A stretch of 64,000 nt of DNA from Mobula hypostoma (taxonomy: Eukaryota). The position numbers were made by a program, and so were the translations under genes. Shown piece after piece: positions 11,255 through 54,175 of the stretch (positions are counted from its first letter, which is position 1; each line of letters begins with the position of its first letter). The stretch is taken from NCBI RefSeq assembly GCF_963921235.1, contig NC_086097.1, positions 119,972,001 to 120,036,000 of the forward strand, given 5' to 3'. A model generated the notes under the pieces. It saw only the letters and a list, made by a program, of their open reading frames with translations. It searched no databases and was not told where the DNA came from.

Positions 11255-12318
11255 TGAGGGCAGAATACGAGGTTAATAGCAGGATTCTTAGCAGTGTGGA
11301 GGAACTGAGAGATATTGAGAATCATGTCTATAGATCCCTCAAAGTTGCTGTGCAGGTTGCTAGGATGGTTAAGAAGGCGTATGGAGTGCTGGCTTTCATT
11401 ACTTTACTTAACCTTATTGTCGCCAAGCAATTGATACTAGAGCGTACAATCATCACAGCGATAATTGATTCTGTGCTTTGCGCTCCCTGGAGTACAAATC
11501 AATAGTAAATATTAAAAATTTAAATTATAAATCACAAATAGAAAATAGAAATGGGAAAGTAAGGTAGCGCAAAAAAAACCGAGAGGCAGGACGGATATTT
11601 GGAGGGTACGGCTCAGATCCTGGTCAGGACCCATTCAGCTGTCTTATCACAGTTGGAAAGAAGCTGTTCTCAAGTCTGGCCGTATGAGTCTTCAAGCTCC
11701 TAAGCCTTCTCCCGGAGGGAAGAGGGACGAAAAGTGTGTTGGCTGGGTGGGTCGTGTCCTTGATTATCCTGGCAGTTGGGAGACTGAGTTCAAGAGCTAG
11801 AAGGTAATGTTGCAAATCTATAAAACCCTGGTTATGCCACACTTCGAGTATTGTGTTCAGTTCTGATCACCTCATTACAGGAAGGATGCGGAACTTTTAG
11901 AGAGGATGCAAAAATTTTCCTGGATTGGATGTTAGGTGAGCTATAGCCTTTCTCTTTGGAGCAAAGGAGGTTTTGAGCTGACTTGATAAAAGTGTTCAAG
12001 ATGACAAGAGGCATTGATTTTTTCCCAGGGCAGGGAGGCATATTTTTAAGGCGTTTGGAGGAAAGTATAGGAAATGTCAGAAGCAGGTTTTTCACACACA
12101 GAATGATAAGTGCATGGGACGTGCTGCCAGGGGTGGTGATAGAAGCAGATACATTAAGAACAGTTAAGAAGTCCTTAGGTAGACACATGGATTATAGGAA
12201 AATAAAGGGCTCTGCAGGAGAGAAGAGTAAGATTGATATTAGAGTAGTTTTAAAAGGTGGCATAGTATTGTGGGAGAATATTAAGCCTGTACATTGCTTA
12301 ATATTCTATGTTCTATGA
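11255..12318 (+). mobile_element. CR1 3' fragment split by a Rex1-type insertion (11401-11773)
   Basis: VKKAYGVLAFI | SWETEFKS is continuous across the insert; RFFTHRMISAWD motif; ttctatg tail. Confidence 0.85.
11401..11773 (-). mobile_element. Rex1/Babar-type LINE 3' end
   Basis: ARIIKDTTHPANTLFVPLPSGRRLRSLKTHTARLENSFFP and an aataa-tandem tail. Confidence 0.8.
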
Positions 12319-13872: not shown

Positions 13873-14060
13873 ATAATTAGTATTTCCTTCAAAATATTTT
13901 ACTGTTTGGAGATATTCACTAACAAAATATTACACAGATTACTCTGTGTGTAATTCCCAATAAAATTGAATAGTAGCCTCACTCTAGTAATTTATTTCTG
14001 GTAAGATGTAACATAGACACCATAATCAAATGTGCATCTTAAGTTAAATTCTAATGATGC

Positions 14061-16750
14061 AGAGGGGAAGGTGTTGCATTGCTTGACAGAGAAAATATTA
14101 CAGTGGTGCTCTGGCAGGATAGATTAGAGGGCTTGTCTAGGGAGGCTATTTGGGTGGAATTGAGGAATGGGAAAGGTATAGTAACACTTATAGGGGTGTA
14201 CTATAGACCACCTAATGGGGAGCAAAATTTAAATGAGCAAATTTGTAAGGAGATAGCAGATATTTGTCGGAAGCACAAGGTTATCATTGTGGGAGACTTC
14301 AATTTTCCACATATAGACTGGGAAGCCCATACTGTAAAAGGGCTGGATGGTTTGGAGTTTGTAAAATGTATGCAGGATAATTTTTTTGCAGCAATACATA
14401 GAGGTACCAACTAGAGAAGGGGCAGTGTTGGATCTCCTGTTAGAGAATGAGATAGGTCAGGTGACAGAGGTATGTGTTGGGGAGCACTTTGGGTCCAGTG
14501 ATCACAATGCCATTAGTTTCAATATAATTATGGAGAAGGATAGGTCTGGATGCAGGTTTAAGATTTTTGATTGGAGAAAGGCTAACTTTGAGGAGATGCA
14601 AAAGGATTTAGAAGGAGTGGATTGGGACAAGTTGTTTTATGGGAAGGATGTAATAGAGAAATGGAGGTCATTTAAAGAAGAAATTTTGAGGGTACAGAAT
14701 CTTTATTCTGCTCTTAGGTTGAAAGGAAGGGTTAAAAATTTGAAAGAGCCATGGTTTTCAAGGGATATTGGAGACTTGGTTTGGAAAAAGAGAGATATCT
14801 ACAATAAATATAGGCAGCATGGAGTAAATGGGGTGCTTGAGGAATATAAAGAATGTAAAAAGAATCTTAAGAAAGAAATTAGAAAAGCTAAAAGAAGATA
14901 CGAGGTTGCTTTGGCAAGTAAGGTGAAAATAAATCCAAGGGGTTTCTACAGTTATATTAATAGCAAAAGGATAGTGAGGGATAAATTTGGTCCCTTAGAG
15001 AATCAGAGTGGACAGCTATGTGTGGAACCAAAGAGATGGGGGAGATTTTGAACAATTTCTTTTCTTCGGTATTCACTGAGGATAAGTATATTGAATTGTG
15101 TAAGGTAAGGGAAGCAGGTAAGGAAATTATGGAAACTATGATGATTAAAGAAGAGGAAGTATTGGCACTCTTAAGAAATATAAAAGTGGATAATTCTCTG
15201 GGTCCTGACAGGATATTCCCTAGGACCTTGAGGGAAGTTAGTGTAGAAAAAAATAGGGGCTCTGACAGAAATATTTCAAATGCCATTAGAAACGGGGATG
15301 GAGCCAAAGGATTGGCATATTGCTCATGTTGTTCCATTGTTTAAAAAGGGTTCTAAGAGTAAACCTAGCAATTATCGACCTGTAAGTTTGACATCAGTGA
15401 TGGGTAAATTAATGGGAAGTATTCTTAGAGATGGTATATGTAATTATCTGGATAGACAGGGTCTGATTAGGAAAAGTCAACATGGATTTGTGCATGGAAG
15501 GTCATGTTTTACAAATATTATTGTATTTTTTTGAAGAGGTTACTAGGAAAGTTGACGAGGGTAAAGAGGTGGATGTTATCTATATGGACTTCAGTAAGGC
15601 CTTTGACAAGGTTCCACACGGACGGGTAGTTAGGAAGGTTCAATTGTTAGGTATTATATTGAATTAGTAAAATGGATTCAATAATGGCTGGATGGGAGAT
15701 GCCAGAGAGTAGTGGTGGATAAATGTTTGTCAGGTTGGAGGCCGATGACTAGTTGTGTGCCGCAGGGATCTGTACTGGGTTTAATGTTGTTTGTCATATA
15801 TATTAATGATCTGGATGATGGGGTGGTAAATTGGATCAGTAAGTATGCAGATGATACTAAGATAGGTGGAGTTGTGGATAATGAGGCAAGTTTTCAAAGC
15901 TAGCAGAGAGATTTAGGCCAGTTAGAAGAGTGGGCTGAAAGATGACAAATGGAGTTTAATGCTGATAAGTGTGAGGTGCTACATTTTGGTAGGACTAATC
16001 AAAATAGGACATACATGGTAAATGGTAGGGCATTGAAGAATGCAGTAGAACAGAGGGATCTAGGCATAATAGTGCATAGTTCCCTGAAGGTTGAATTTCA
16101 TTTGGATAGGGTGGTGAAGAAAGCTTTTGATATGCTGGCCTCTATAAATCAGAGCATTGTGTATAGGAGTTGGGATGTAATGTTGAAATTATACAAGGAA
16201 TTGGTAAGTCCAAATTTGGAGTATTGTTTACAGTTCTGGTCGCCGAATTATAGGAAAGATGTCAACACGATAGAGAGAGTACAGAGAAGATTTATTAGAA
16301 TATTACCTGGATTTCATCTCCTAACTTACAGAGAAAGGTTTAACAAGTTGGGTCGTTATTCTTTGGAGAGTAGAAGGTTGAGGGGGGACTTGATAGAGGT
16401 ATTTATAATTATGAGGGGGATAGATAGAGTTGACGCGGATAGGCTTTTTCCATTGAAAGTAGGGGAGATTCAAACAAAAGGACATGAGTTGAGAGTTAGG
16501 GGGCAAAAGTTTAGGGGTAACACGAGGGGGAACTTCTTTACTCAGAGAGTAGTAGCTGTGTGGAACGAGCTTCCAGCAGAAGTGGTTGAGGCAGGTTCGA
16601 TGTTGTCATTTAAAGTTAAATTGGATGGCTATATGGACAGTAATTGGCTGAGTGCAGGTTGGTGGGACTAGATGAGAGTAAGAGTTTGGCATGGACTAGA
16701 AGGGCCGAGATGGCCTGTTTCCATTCTGTAATTGTTATATGGTTATATGG
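14061..16750 (+). mobile_element. CR1 LINE, 5'-truncated, ORF2 (APE endonuclease + RT) with frameshifts and stops
   Basis: GVYYRPP, VGDFNFPHIDW, SSDHN, NYRPVSLTS, YMDFSKAFDKVPH, VPQGSVLG and KYADDTK motifs; (ttatatgg)n tail. Confidence 0.96.
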
Positions 16751-17677: not shown

Positions 17678-18290
17678 AAGATCCTAAGACATAAGAGCTG
17701 AATTAGGTCTTTTGGCTCATCAGATCTGTTGCACCATTCTACCATGGCTGAATTATTATCCCTCTTAGCCCTATTCTCCTATTTATTTTTGTAACCTTAT
17801 TGACACCCTTACTAATGAGGAATCTATCAGCCTCTGCTTTAAGTATCCCTAATTACCTGGCTTCCACAGAGGTCTGTGGCAATGTCTTCCATACATTCAT
17901 CCCTCTGGCTAAAGAAATCTATCCTCATCTCTGTTATAAAGGAACATCCTTATATACTGAGGCTGTGCTCTCTGGTCCTAGACTCCCGCACTATAGGAAA
18001 TGTCTTCTCCATGTCCACTCTGTTAGACCTTTCGATATTCTATAGGGTTCATTGACATCCTCCCTCATTTTTCTAAACTCCAGTGAGTGTAGATGAAGAG
18101 CCATCAAAAGCTCCACATATATTAACCCCAGAAGCATTCTTGGGCCCTCTTCAATGCCAGCACATCCTGTCTTGTATAAGTAATGCAAAACTGTTCACCA
18201 TACTCCAAGTGCAATCTGAAAGACCTATAAAGCCTTAGCACTACATCCTTGCCTGTATATTTTTGCGTTTATTAAATTAATGCACACATT
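17678..18290 (-). mobile_element. Old CR1 3' fragment
   Basis: Tail at about 17678-17695; LHSLEFRKMRED motif. Confidence 0.78.
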
Positions 18291-18391
18291 CATATTGTTT
18301 TCACACTGTAACCAAGAATGAAAAGAAAACTAGTGAACAGAATTTACACAGTGAAACAAAGACGATGACCTAATATTTAAATGTACTGTAC

Positions 18392-19283
18392 TATACGGCA
18401 ATCCCAAATGACAGTAACATCAGGAAGAAAGAATATGAGAAGCTGGAGAAATACCAGGGCTTGAAAGAACAGATAGAAAGGATGTGGAAGGTTAAAGCCA
18501 GAGTAATCCCGGTGGTCATAAGAGCACCTGGAACTGTGACAGCTGGACCGAGAGAGTGGTTTCAACAAATCCCGGGAACAATATCTGAGACCTCAGTCCA
18601 GAAGAACCCACTACTTGGAAGGGAAAATGTAAGAGCAGATTACTATTTAAAAGGTAAAAAATTACAGCATGCCACTGTGCAGAGGGACTTGGAAGCGCTT
18701 GTGTACAAACCACAAAAGGTTGGTTTGCAGGTGCAGAAGACAATCAAGAAGGCAAATGGAATCTTGGCCTTCATTACTCGAGGGATTGAATTTAAGAGCA
18801 GGGAGGTTATGCTGCAACTGTACAGGATAATGGTGAGGCCGCACCTGGAGTACTGTGTGTAGTTCTGTTCTCCTTTCTCGGGGAAGGATATATTGGCTTT
18901 TGAGGCGATGCAGAAGAGATTTACCAGGTTGAACTAAGGGACTTAGCCTCAAGATTCGGGGCAGTAGATTTAGGACAAAGATGAAGAGGAACTGTTTTCC
19001 TCAGAAAGTGGTGAATCTGTGGAATTCTCTGCCCAATGAAGCAGTGGAGGCTACCTCAGTAAATATATTTAAGACAAGGTTGGAAAGATTTTTTGCATAG
19101 TAGTGGAACTAAAGATTATGGGGAAAAGGCAGGTTGGTGGAGATGAGTCCATGGCCAGATCAGCCATGATCTTATTGAATGGCAGAGCATGCTCGACAAG
19201 CCAGATGGCCTACTCCTGCTCCTATTTCTTATGTTCTTATGTTAGGAACAGCAAGGATGCTGTGTCAAACTCTCAAGCTCCCA
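18392..19283 (+). mobile_element. R4/Dong-type (restriction-like endonuclease) non-LTR retrotransposon, 3' end of ORF, split by a CR1 insertion
   Basis: 18392-18620 encodes AIPNDSNIRKKEYEKLEKYQGLKEQIERMWKVKARVIPVVIRAPG...SVQKNPLLG. The ORF resumes at 19245 as GTARMLCQTLKLP. This is the typical C-terminus of R4-clade RLE proteins. Confidence 0.8.
18621..19242 (+). mobile_element. CR1 LINE 3' fragment inserted in the R4 element
   Basis: KKANGILAFITRGIEFKSREVMLQLYRIMVRPHLEYCV motif and a (ttcttatg)n tail; flanked by ttggaa/taggaa. Confidence 0.9.
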
Positions 19284-19382
19284 CACAGTGACTGGGACCC
19301 TCACGTGATTGTGGTTCCCAGTGAGTGGGCGCTGGTATCTACAACCTCACTCCCTAATTGTCAGCTCTGTGCCCTGCCCCAG

Positions 19383-19720
19383 GTTCGTGCTGATGCATTT
19401 GTGTTGGCAGTACAACCCCAAGATGTGACCCTCCTTCATGGAGATTATTGAGGGCAATATGGACGACCTGGAATCATCCTTCAAAGAGGTTGACTACTTC
19501 TACAGCGAGGAGTGCAAAAACCATGACTCAGAGGAGTATGAGATCGAGGCAGAGAATGTGAACAGCATTCCCCTTGACCCCTCCTCCACTATGCAGCACA
19601 CAGACAAACACTCCAGCCACAAGGAGGAGAACGGGCCCGGCATTGTCCAGTGAGCCAGCTTCGACGAGCGGCAGCCACATGATCAGGGGCAGGAAGAAGG
19701 AGAAGGTGTTGCCTTTGCCC
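19383..19720 (+). pseudogene. IGF1R: Orphan pseudo-exon homologous to the terminal coding exon of IGF1R (kinase C-lobe end plus C-terminal tail)
   Basis: After an acceptor (ccctaat...ctctgtgccctgccccag|G) the sequence reads [21 protein letters not shown]...FKEVDYFYSEE...[41 protein letters not shown] / HMIRGRKKEKVLPLP. This matches IGF1R [22 protein letters not shown]...SFYYSEE...VPLDPS...HSGHKAENGPG...[26 protein letters not shown]. Stops are at 19426-19428 and 19651-19653 (both Arg positions), with a frameshift near 19676. Confidence 0.93.
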
Positions 19721-19881
19721 ACACATGCATGCACACACATACACAACAATGCGCATACACATGCACAAATATGCAGTTGCATATACAGATACACTATCAT
19801 GCACACGTGCACCCACACAGATGTGTACATACATGCACAGGCAGGCCCCCATACAAGAAGTCACACACACACACGTACACA

Positions 19882-19928
<47 letters not shown>

Positions 19929-20125
19929 GTGTGCACACATACTCATGCACTAATATGCACATGCATACATAGATGCACTCGCATGCATAAATGCACCCAC
20001 ACAGACACGTACACACATGCAGACAGGCAGGCAAGCGTACCGGAAGACAGACACATGAACACAGAGATATGTGGGCACGCACACACACATACGCAGACAC
20101 ACAGACATGTGCATGCTGTACTGCA
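19721..20125. repeat. Degenerate CA/CACG-rich microsatellite with a pure (CA)n core near 19885-19926
   Basis: Directly visible; it generates the spurious HTHT/VCVC ORFs. Confidence 0.97.
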
Positions 20126-20394
20126 TATCTCTGCCACACCCTGTGTGGAAAAAACTTGCTTCTCAGGTCCCATTTAAAAGTTTCCTCTCTCAACTTAAAC
20201 CAATGTCCTCTAACTCTTAGACTCTTTACCAAAAAGACTGAGCATCCATCTTATTGAAGCTGGGCATGATTTTATAAATCTCTGCAAGGCTACCCCTTAG
20301 TTCCAGCAACATCCTTGTATTTTTTTCTTCTACATCATCCTGAGTTTAATCACATTCTTCCTTTGTAGGGGGACCAGAACTGCACACACTATTC

Positions 20395-20685
20395 CAGAGC
20401 AACACGTACAAAATGCTGGAGGGACTCAGCGGGTCGGACAACATCCGTGGAGAGGAATAAACAGTCAATGTTTTTGGCTCAGACCTATCATCAAGAATGC
20501 AAGGGAAGGGGGAAGAAGCCAGAATATGAAGGTGAGGGGAAGGGAAGGAGTACAAGCTGGCAGGTGATATGTGAAACCAGATGAGGGTGAAGGTGCTGGT
20601 GGGGGAGGGTGATGAATTGAGAAGCTAGGAATCGATCGATGCAAAAGGTAAAGGGCTGAACAAGAAGGAATCTTTTAGGAGTCGG
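20395..20685 (-). mobile_element. Old PLE 3' terminal fragment
   Basis: caaaatgctggagggactcagc...cagtcaatgtttttggctcagacctatcatcaag terminus and a purine-rich UTR like the other copies. Confidence 0.7.
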
Positions 20686-52124: not shown

Positions 52125-54175
52125 GGCTTCCATCAGTCCAGCTACTCCTTCAGGATGTAACAAGACAAGTTCAAGCTGGGTATACCTCACAGTTCCTCAT
52201 TTCTGCTCATCCTCCTGCTTAGAGGAACTTGTACCTTCTCAAAAGCAGCTCTGAACACAGGGTGAATGGCCAAGTTTTTCAAAAGGTTCTCTCCATTTCT
52301 CTCCTTGCATGCTCCCATGAACCTCTCAAACTGAAATATTTATTCCCACAAGAATGGAAGCTTCACCTTTTCAACCGGATCTGGGCAGACCAACACTAAT
52401 ATATCAATAGTCTCAGTTACTCCAGCATCTGCTTCTGAAAACTCCAGTTTCAACAAGTAACCATCGTTCGCGTACTCATCAGTACTAAGCCCCCAAATCT
52501 CAAGGGTACTGGATGGTGTTAATTATGGCTGTAAAAGGATCTATAAAGTAACATAATGAGTCAAATATGGCTCTAGCATAAACACCTTCAATCCGTATGG
52601 ATGCATCAGAGCTTGATCCCACTAAAGCTTCAGGAATAGTGTTTTACACTTTAGTGTTTATCTTGATACTCTGATAGGAAGGTATCCTTTCCAAAACATC
52701 AGCCTATTCTTTTACTGGGTCCCTCTGTAGTTTTGCCTTTTTACTTCTCTGACTAACTGCTAACTTACTTTTCAAAGAATTTCCTGTCCATCACAGTCTC
52801 GTTTGAAATGTCCATCTTCTGCTCAGGTGTAACAGAAAATGACGGTCGCCTCTCTAGTCAGGAGACCCTATCAGCAGCAATCGCCTGCGTCGTAAGTCCT
52901 ATAGGTGGGTCAGGATTCCCAACAGACATCCATTGAGTCAGCTCAGCTCGAGGCTTTTCACCTCATTCCTGTGGCATCGGGGGTCACTTTATCTGCAGAT
53001 GCTATCACTGAAGACACTGCTCAGCTTTTGGGAATGTTCTGCTTCTCCATCATGTTTTCCTTCTCTCTAACTTCATTGAGTAACTCGATAAAAGATGGAG
53101 CAGGGTTCATTTTGTGTGCCATTCGAATATGTAGAGCAATCAGGTTATGTGACAGTGCACCCTCCACAACTTGCTCCATCCTCAAGCAATTTTTCTCGGA
53201 CAGCTGAATGAATGTCCCCTTTGTGGCCCAAACAAAACAGCAGTTTCTCCACCCTGAAAAGGTAGGGGGACAACTTCTCTCCTTCCTCCTGGAATGTGTG
53301 CCTAAACTTCATCCCAAGATAGGCTGCACTTTCAGCAGTGCCAAAAGCATATTCCAGAGCTTGCAGATAATTAGCTGATGTGGCTAATGGGTTTTCTGCC
53401 TTGAGGAACCTCACTATATCAGACACCAGACCCTTTAAACTCTCCAGCAGTCCCTGTTTTTTCATATTATCTGAGCACTGTCACTCACCCTGTAACTGAG
53501 ATATCTGCTCAGCCCAAGCCTCATATCCTTCTTCCCCATCAGGGGCGGACTTGACTCCAGAGAACACTCTCAGCTTACGATAGCTTTGTCTTTCCACAAG
53601 TACACTTTGGCATTTATCAACTACTGATGTAGTATCCAAAACAAATTCTGAATTTAAATCAACTCCTGAGTGACCCATTAGACCTTTCCCATCAGACAAC
53701 TCCTTTCCCTCACTTTGCAGAAATGAGGACAACTTGTCTTTAAAGTCTGCAGCCTCAGCTACATTCCTCCCTTCTCTAGAGATATGTACTGCCCATGGCC
53801 CCACCTCTCCAGGTGCCCCCTATCTTATCTGGCAACACAACTTCAGTTACAGTACTGGTAGCCTGGACTAACACAACATCCCTGCCAGCTGATTCGTCAA
53901 AACACCGTTCAATCGGTATAACTTTCCCAGCACTTACACAGAGCCCAGCACTCCAAGGAGCAGTTCATTAGGAATTTGGACATCCACTCTACTCAGAACA
54001 CAAACATTACTAATGGATATCCTTATTAAATCACACCAAACTTTAAACTCCACGGCATCCATAATAAAGTACCTTAATTACAACACACCTCACTTTCCAC
54101 AAACACTAGTTTTAATGCCGGCTTAAACATGCAAATAAACCGCTTAATCAATCCTTAAACAACATTCACACAGCA
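52125..54175 (-). mobile_element. Decayed Gypsy element with PNMA-like gag, zinc knuckle and protease
   Basis: ATG at 54062 (MDAVEFKVWC...); YRKLRVFSG...EEGYEAW...LLESLKG...YLQALEYAFG...FQEEGEKLSPYL; knuckle CYT*AEDGHFKRDC at about 52793-52835; protease LVGSSSDASIRIEGVYARAIFDS at about 52560-52630. Confidence 0.88.

What the first reader, a model, noticed from the sequence alone, without database searches (positions are those of the whole stretch)
19285..19720. Orphan IGF1R terminal exon with intact splice acceptor, stranded among transposons
Seen: a roughly 340-bp GC-richer island translates to the IGF1R kinase end and tail. IGF1R-type residues ([18 protein letters not shown], LPLP) are present rather than INSR-type ones (WQFNPKMRPTF, TLPRSNPS). 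It is preceded by a branch-point-like CTAAT, a pyrimidine tract and AG at a phase-2 junction, which I recall matches the vertebrate IGF1R last exon. Both stops sit at conserved Arg codons, consistent with CGA>TGA decay, and the PYAHM motif has lost about 8 nt. I saw no other IGF1R exon in the 64 kb. Inference: because intron sequence is retained, this is not a processed pseudogene but a DNA-level or unspliced-RNA copy, or the last relic of a lost paralogue.
Basis: partly seen in the sequence, partly recalled or inferred. Interest (0 to 1): 0.8.

Follow-up and report, generated by a model that had tools for sequence, protein, structure and literature searches.

The report
Dead stray copy of IGF1R exon
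This is a broken copy, about 850 bases long, of the last exon and neighbouring intron and untranslated DNA of the animal's own intact growth-factor receptor gene (igf1r), sitting on another chromosome where it was likely pasted in while a DNA break was repaired; it is ordinary genomic debris, not a lost gene.

Summary
Window 19278 to about 20116-20131 is a copy of the last exon of this genome's own igf1r. The donor lies intact on another contig (C63; 20 exon matches cover 1328 of 1367 residues). The copy carries 105 nt of intron and about 350-400 nt of 3' UTR. It is 87% identical to the donor over the exon region, so it is no relic of a lost paralogue. No other IGF1R exon lies within 264 kb. 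Three other organisms hold the copy with the same 5' junction. It has two stops and an 8-nt frameshift, and has drifted neutrally (11 nonsynonymous to 3 synonymous changes). The first stop arose CGG>TGG>TGA, not CGA>TGA. The 5' junction joins a tail-less LINE through 6 nt of microhomology. There is no poly(A), and the repeat on the right also lacks its tail. Best reading: a templated patch at a DNA break, from DNA or unspliced RNA (0.55). Main rival: co-insertion with the LINE by reverse-transcriptase template switching (0.25), which a 7-nt direct repeat weakly supports. Interest is low.

The parts
19278..19382 (+). Copy of the 3' end of the last igf1r intron (105 nt; donor 128 nt, differing by a 23-nt gap between GAC repeats), with branch-point-like site 19354-19358 and acceptor AG 19381-19382
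   Evidence: the junction 15-mer occurs with at most 1 mismatch at 2 of 926,852 positions scanned, as many as the window and donor sites alone supply
19278..19283 (+). 6-nt microhomology (CTCCCA) shared by the LINE on the left and the donor intron: the 5' junction
19383..19720 (+). Dead copy of the igf1r last coding exon: stops at 19426 and 19651, 8-nt deletion near 19675; 36 mismatches in 338 aligned columns against the donor
19721..20116 (+). Copy of the CA-rich igf1r 3' UTR with an expanded (CA)n; the last six codons and natural stop seem lost in a deletion of about 36 nt (read by eye)
20117..20131 (+). Ambiguous 3' junction: readable as donor sequence after microsatellite shrinkage, as the start of the flanking CR1-like repeat, or (20117-20123) as a target-site duplication; no poly(A)
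18397..18620 (+). 5'-truncated piece of a non-LTR retrotransposon family (753 first-look candidates); restriction-like-endonuclease (R4-like) type by recalled motifs, RT-associated zinc finger found in a longer copy
18621..19242 (+). High-copy repeat 3' end (CR1-like, label recalled) inserted later into that retrotransposon piece
19243..19283 (+). Continuation of the retrotransposon piece, cut about 65-75 nt before its normal 3' end and joined to the igf1r copy
18382..18388 (+). Left copy of a 7-nt direct repeat (also at 20117-20123), candidate target-site duplication around LINE piece plus igf1r copy
20124..20400 (-). Older CR1-like repeat (label recalled) lacking about 200-240 nt that precede this point in other copies

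Best explanation
The block is a copy of the end of the same genome's intact igf1r gene that carries two stops and a frameshift, and it was likely copied into a chromosome break on C1 as a repair patch (a class 2 templated sequence insertion), from donor DNA or from unspliced igf1r RNA. Shown: donor identity, extent, single extra copy found, lesions, the same 5' junction in four organisms, 6-nt microhomology at that junction, no poly(A), tail-less repeats on both sides. Inferred: a break with end trimming removed the 3' tails of the two tail-to-tail repeats (about 270-310 nt or more), the left end annealed to the donor intron through the microhomology, synthesis slipped 23 nt between GAC repeats and stopped in the CA-rich UTR, and the copy has drifted without selection since. 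It would make no receptor protein: it has no upstream exons, and its frame stops after 14 codons.
For: Two DNA matches in the genome, self and C63. Donor gene in order and open: 20 exon matches, 1328 of 1367 residues; the one stop in a match lies past an exon end. No other IGF1R exon in 264 kb. Copy-type contigs bridge the 5' junction in organisms B, C and E, each beside a functional-type contig that starts at 19290-19292. Microhomology and missing LINE tail; missing part of the right-hand repeat, not found on the left (best of 22 alignments p 0.035). No A-tail and no poly(A) signal in the copy; the donor's first AATAAA lies 95-145 nt beyond the copied part. After the split from C and E the copy took 11 nonsynonymous and 3 synonymous changes (omega 0.91; binomial p 0.75 against neutrality) and the gene 1 and 3 (omega 0.08; p 0.027). 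Class 2 features as described in PMC5110952.
Against: The empty site was not seen, so target deletion is inferred. A 7-nt direct repeat flanks LINE plus copy (chance 0.3-3%), and the LINE piece is about as old as the copy (6.5% non-CpG from its family majority); both fit co-insertion. Later deletions could have made both junctions. Microhomology at the 3' junction cannot be resolved. The direct copy-versus-gene contrast in N:S is not significant (Fisher p 0.083), and the counts were polarised by hand from the 40 of 109 rows shown.
Confidence: 0.55

Rival explanations
1. One event inserted both pieces. A LINE reverse transcriptase began on unspliced igf1r RNA in the CA-rich UTR, copied into the intron, then switched at the 6-nt microhomology onto its own RNA just upstream of the 3' UTR. 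This gives a LINE-5'/cellular-3' chimera, or a non-classical LINE insertion with captured cellular RNA.
For: Same orientation and direct join; LINE cut at both ends. 7-nt direct repeat at 18382-18388 and 20117-20123, null 0.3% at a fixed junction and 3% with 14 nt of slack. Similar divergence of both pieces. Human non-classical L1 insertions are 3'-truncated, lack poly(A), delete target DNA and often carry non-L1 segments, two of them from cellular RNA (PMC1920257, passages).
Against: Only 1 of 23 scorable family copies (34 examined) shows a repeat of 7 nt or more, and that one is a TA microsatellite. The 7-mer can also be read as donor or CR1-like sequence. 4 of 34 family copies lose the tail, all followed by other repeats or microsatellites and none by gene-like DNA. 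Described chimeras have the cellular RNA 5' and the LINE 3' (PMC2104539, PMC13174262, passages). Captured segments in PMC1920257 were 4-312 bp.
Confidence: 0.25
2. Remnant of a longer DNA duplication from C63 to C1, later trimmed by deletions on both sides.
For: Intron plus UTR retained; microhomology also marks deletions; repeats on both sides are truncated.
Against: No second collinear unique block between 264 kb of C1 and 200 kb of C63. The one candidate, 11411-11775, is a high-copy repeat with 3797 candidates. The 5' junction is already the same in four organisms.
Confidence: 0.12
3. 3' transduction by a LINE that once sat in the last igf1r intron and read through the exon.
For: A sense-strand LINE piece lies directly upstream of the copy.
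Against: The LINE lacks its tail, no trace of this part of the family lies in 200 kb around the donor exon, and there is no poly(A). The CR1-like tail at 19242 is a later nested insertion, not the carrier.
Confidence: 0.04
4. A functional or co-opted exon: part of a real second gene with assembly errors, or spliced into a host transcript.
For: The acceptor AG and a pyrimidine tract (14 of 20 bases, donor 16 of 20) survive. A host gene with short exons cannot be excluded.
Against: Organism B's contig has the same first stop. Four runs of organism A hold 0.92 of the 59 sampled words (possibly the assembly's own sample). Changes are neutral. 206 of 217 open frames of 75 aa or more in locally non-repetitive parts of the 264 kb gave retroelement-type domains and two unknown-function domains, and no recognisable host gene.
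Confidence: 0.03
5. Last relic of an ancient lost insulin-receptor-family paralogue.
For: Nothing beyond its isolation.
Against: Intron and UTR are 88-94% identical to igf1r, whereas the INSR exon matches at 67% over 196 columns. In the protein tree the copy falls inside cartilaginous-fish IGF1R (97/98 support) and its nearest row is the genome's own igf1r.
Confidence: 0.01

Closest known systems
Class 2 templated sequence insertions (Onozawa and Aplan, PMC5110952)
   Same: Copy of a distant locus with the donor left intact; no poly(A) or poly(A) signal; microhomology; apparent loss of target DNA.
   Different: Old and shared by four organisms rather than polymorphic; longer than the 73-414 bp experimental inserts; the empty site and the template type were not seen.
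Non-classical, endonuclease-independent L1 insertions (PMC1920257)
   Same: 3'-truncated LINE without tail, joined to non-LINE DNA, with likely target deletion.
   Different: A different LINE type; the non-LINE part is about 850 bp against 4-312 bp; co-insertion is unproven.
Chimeric retrotranscripts made by LINE template switching (PMC2104539, PMC13174262)
   Same: Two parts directly joined in the same orientation; candidate direct repeat.
   Different: The order is reversed (LINE 5', cellular 3'), both parts are cut at both ends, and the repeat is short and ambiguous.
Non-processed (duplicated) pseudogene fragment (general knowledge)
   Same: Intron retained, disabling mutations, neutral drift, CpG decay.
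   Different: One exon only, on another chromosome, with no wider duplicated block.

Membership tests
IGF1R last exon (derived from) | Closer to IGF1R than to INSR or the third family member | tested here: met
IGF1R last exon (derived from) | Acceptor at the same base and phase as the functional gene | tested here: met
Functional IGF1R gene | Open frame and upstream exons | tested here: not met
   two stops and a frameshift; no other exon in 264 kb
Processed pseudogene or class 1 insertion | Introns removed (processed pseudogene) | tested here: not met
   105 nt of intron retained
Processed pseudogene or class 1 insertion | Poly(A) tail with upstream signal | tested here: not met
Class 2 templated insertion | Distant donor left intact | tested here: met
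Class 2 templated insertion | No poly(A) tract or signal | tested here: met
Class 2 templated insertion | Microhomology at a junction | tested here: met
   6 nt at the 5' junction; 3' junction unresolved
Class 2 templated insertion | No target-site duplication | tested here: inconclusive
   none directly around the igf1r piece beyond a chance-level 7-mer inside the LINE; a 7-nt repeat around LINE plus piece
Class 2 templated insertion | Deletion of target DNA | tested here: inconclusive
   both flanking repeats lack their tails; no empty site available
Class 2 templated insertion | RNA or DNA template | not testable with these tools
   no splice junction inside the copy
Canonical LINE chimeric retrotranscript | Cellular RNA 5', LINE 3' | tested here: not met
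   order reversed (PMC2104539)
Canonical LINE chimeric retrotranscript | Same orientation, direct join | tested here: met
Canonical LINE chimeric retrotranscript | Flanking direct repeats | tested here: inconclusive
Non-classical LINE insertion | LINE and extra DNA inserted in one event | not testable with these tools
   ages compatible; needs an outgroup empty site
Ancient paralogue relic | Deep divergence from all living family members, no alignable non-coding DNA | tested here: not met

The most novel reading that the evidence does not exclude
A fish LINE of the restriction-like-endonuclease type began reverse transcription on unspliced igf1r RNA and then jumped by microhomology onto its own RNA, skipping its own 3' UTR. 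That would be a LINE-5'/pre-mRNA-3' chimera, the reverse of described chimeras, and a route for moving splice-ready terminal exons around cartilaginous-fish genomes.
Probability: 0.2. Interest if true: 0.4.

Novelty: new member of a known kind. Interest (0 to 1): 0.13.

Why it matters
As it stands it matters little: a dead exon copy. It is a usable presence/absence marker shared by at least four related organisms, and a trap for primers or read mapping aimed at the igf1r 3' end. If the template-switch reading held, it would show that this LINE type can carry intron-containing host RNA with an intact acceptor, the raw material of exon shuffling.

Tried and rejected
Extension of the duplicated block to window 11411-11775 (82% to the last igf1r intron): rejected, high-copy repeat. 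The CR1-like tail at 19242 as a 3'-transducing carrier: rejected, it is nested inside the LINE piece. The missing part of the right-hand repeat on the left flank: not found; 18270-18400 is single-copy. Family-wide chimera formation: 0 of 4 tail-less copies are followed by gene-like DNA. Absolute dating: the epaulette-shark rate of 7e-10 per generation (PMC10587355, passages) gives 464 Myr or more for generation times of 5-20 years, which is impossible for this copy, so no date is given. Expression: no RNA holder listed, which is no evidence. In one search only functional-type contigs were laid, also in two DNA runs that hold the copy by word count, so a filter drops copy-type records and their absence from the two RNA runs proves nothing. 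For the same reason organism A's own copy was not seen, and the second stop and the 8-nt deletion are not confirmed from contigs. A solved-structure search did not label the C2 gene. Earlier scan findings: none returned. Literature searches (listings and abstract starts only) showed no paper on such an igf1r fragment; the library lacks most subscription journals, and no supplements were read. No structure prediction or complex job was run, since the frame is dead.

Full report
Observation. The reading frame from 19384 gives the IGF1R kinase end and tail with TGA at 19426 and 19651. Its best match among solved structures is IGF1R (107.6 bits) ahead of INSR (72.8). An 8-nt deletion near 19675, between CCA repeats, shifts the frame.

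Donor. The window is G000:C1:119,972,001-120,036,000. A DNA search of the genome gave two matches: itself and C63:10,663,146-10,663,584 at 87%. The C63 exon is open and ends in a normal stop. Its best protein relatives are basking-shark (87%) and skate (85%) IGF1R, so the animal is a cartilaginous fish. Basking-shark IGF1R maps to C63 as 20 ordered exon matches covering 1328 of 1367 residues; residues 1-38 were not found in the stretches fetched, and the single stop inside a match lies past an exon end. INSR lies on C73. A third family member lies on C2; calling it INSRR is my inference by elimination, and one search did not confirm it. The protein search used a stricter first look, so its counts are a floor.

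Extent. BLAST aligns window 19290-20116 with the donor, 696 of 855 columns. Mismatches: intron 11 of 93, coding 36 of 338, two UTR stretches 4 of 65 and 14 of 186. Homology begins 12 nt earlier, at 19278, across a 23-nt gap between GAC repeats; the 15-mer involved has 2 near-matches in 926,852 positions, as many as window and donor supply. Whether the gap is a loss in the copy or a gain in the donor is not polarised. No other IGF1R exon lies in 264 kb of C1, and no second unique collinear block with 200 kb of C63 was found. One apparent block, 11411-11775, is a repeat with 3797 candidates. In a protein tree of 13 rows the copy lies inside cartilaginous-fish IGF1R (97/98), nearest to the genome's own gene; the order inside that group is unresolved. 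A lost ancient paralogue is excluded.

Other organisms. Of 23 listed runs, four of organism A hold 0.92 of 59 sampled words (possibly the assembly's own sample) and four of B hold 0.25. Laying four runs showed copy-type contigs bridging the 5' junction in B (13 differences and one gap in 386 nt, depth 2), C (26 in 299) and E (51 in 466), each beside a functional-type contig starting at 19290-19292. These are three separate studies. There is indirect support that the copy is in those reads. In 3 of the 4 A and B DNA runs laid, the functional-gene contig ends 203 nt past 19677, the exact base where a 31-letter path would merge with a 33-nt stretch shared by copy and donor. The two RNA contigs run 455 nt and bridge that place; this is only a weak hint that the copy was scarce in those libraries.

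Decay. In the donor, 12 of 42 CpG positions have decayed in the copy, while 31 of 346 other positions differ; pairwise dN/dS is 0.50. The first stop sits on donor CGG, reads TGG in C and E and TGA in A and B, so it arose in two steps. I polarised by hand the 40 of 109 difference rows shown (19330-19632; 39 of the 44 differences between A's gene and copy; site 19608 left out as parallel). After the split from C and E the copy took 11 nonsynonymous and 3 synonymous changes and the gene 1 and 3. Omega is 0.91 and 0.08; binomial p against neutrality is 0.75 and 0.027; the direct Fisher test gives p 0.083. About 15 further differences separate all copies from all genes, so the insertion predates that split. 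No absolute age could be given.

Junctions. On the left, 19243-19283 continues a non-LTR retrotransposon piece (18397-18620) that a later CR1-like repeat split. A longer copy has an RT-associated zinc finger (E 3e-4) and a faint RT match (E 0.06). The labels R4-like and CR1-like rest on recalled motifs. The piece stops 65-75 nt before its normal end, at a 6-nt sequence shared with the donor intron. On the right, an older minus-strand repeat begins near 20124 without the 200-240 nt that precede this point in other copies; that part is not on the left flank. There is no A-tail or poly(A) signal. This is the pattern of class 2 templated insertions, described as patches at double-strand breaks with microhomology, deletion and no tail (PMC5110952; parts 1-3 of 4 read).

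Against this reading, a 7-nt repeat flanks LINE piece plus copy, with a chance level of 0.3-3%. The LINE piece is 17 of 224 bases (14 of 214 non-CpG) from its family majority, similar to the copy's drift, and both parts have the same sense. A single event with a template switch is therefore possible; human non-classical L1 insertions look like this (PMC1920257, passages). But only 1 of 23 scorable family copies has such a repeat, 4 of 34 lose the tail for other reasons, the 7-mer has two other readings, and described chimeras have the opposite order (PMC13174262 and PMC2104539, passages). Without an empty site the two cannot be separated. I put them at 0.55 and 0.25; these weights are judgement.

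Surroundings. 52% of the window hits a local repeat. Of 217 open frames of 75 aa or more in locally non-repetitive parts of the 264 kb, 206 were scanned; hits were retroelement-type domains and two unknown-function domains. A host gene with short exons is not excluded.

Verdict. A real, correctly spotted but ordinary dead fragment of igf1r: a new member of a known kind. Searches listed no paper describing it. Interest 0.13.

Noticed in passing
window 19608, 19615, 19632: Three sites where copy and gene vary in parallel across organisms. At 19608 both sequences read A in organism A and G in C and E. CpG hypermutation fits 19615 and 19632; a short gene conversion is possible for 19608.
   Followed up: no
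window 18397-18620 and loci L044-L048, L063-L091: This LINE family mostly ends in an A-run followed by TA-rich sequence and shows no clear target-site duplications (1 of 23 scorable copies).
   Followed up: partly
window 11411-11775: High-copy repeat fragment nested in another repeat; matches the last igf1r intron only by coincidence.
   Followed up: yes
window 53148-53480 (-): PNMA (gag-like) Pfam match, E 3e-21, likely an LTR-retroelement remnant.
   Followed up: no
window 14058-14411 (+): LINE endonuclease domain fragment.
   Followed up: no
L041:356 to L042:783: Cluster of integrase, RNase H and SCAN-like matches, an LTR-retroelement region about 85 kb downstream of the window.
   Followed up: no
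   Followed up: yes
G000:C2:236,608,136-236,646,100 (L097): Compact third insulin-receptor-family gene with a very divergent tail.
   Followed up: partly
G000:C63:10,403,303-10,581,240: An igf1r intron of about 178 kb between the first two exon matches.
   Followed up: no
G000:C50:53,932,094, C12:136,761,770, C59:50,006,517: Three long uninterrupted kinase-domain matches (36-48% to IGF1R), possibly intronless kinase genes or retrocopies.
   Followed up: no
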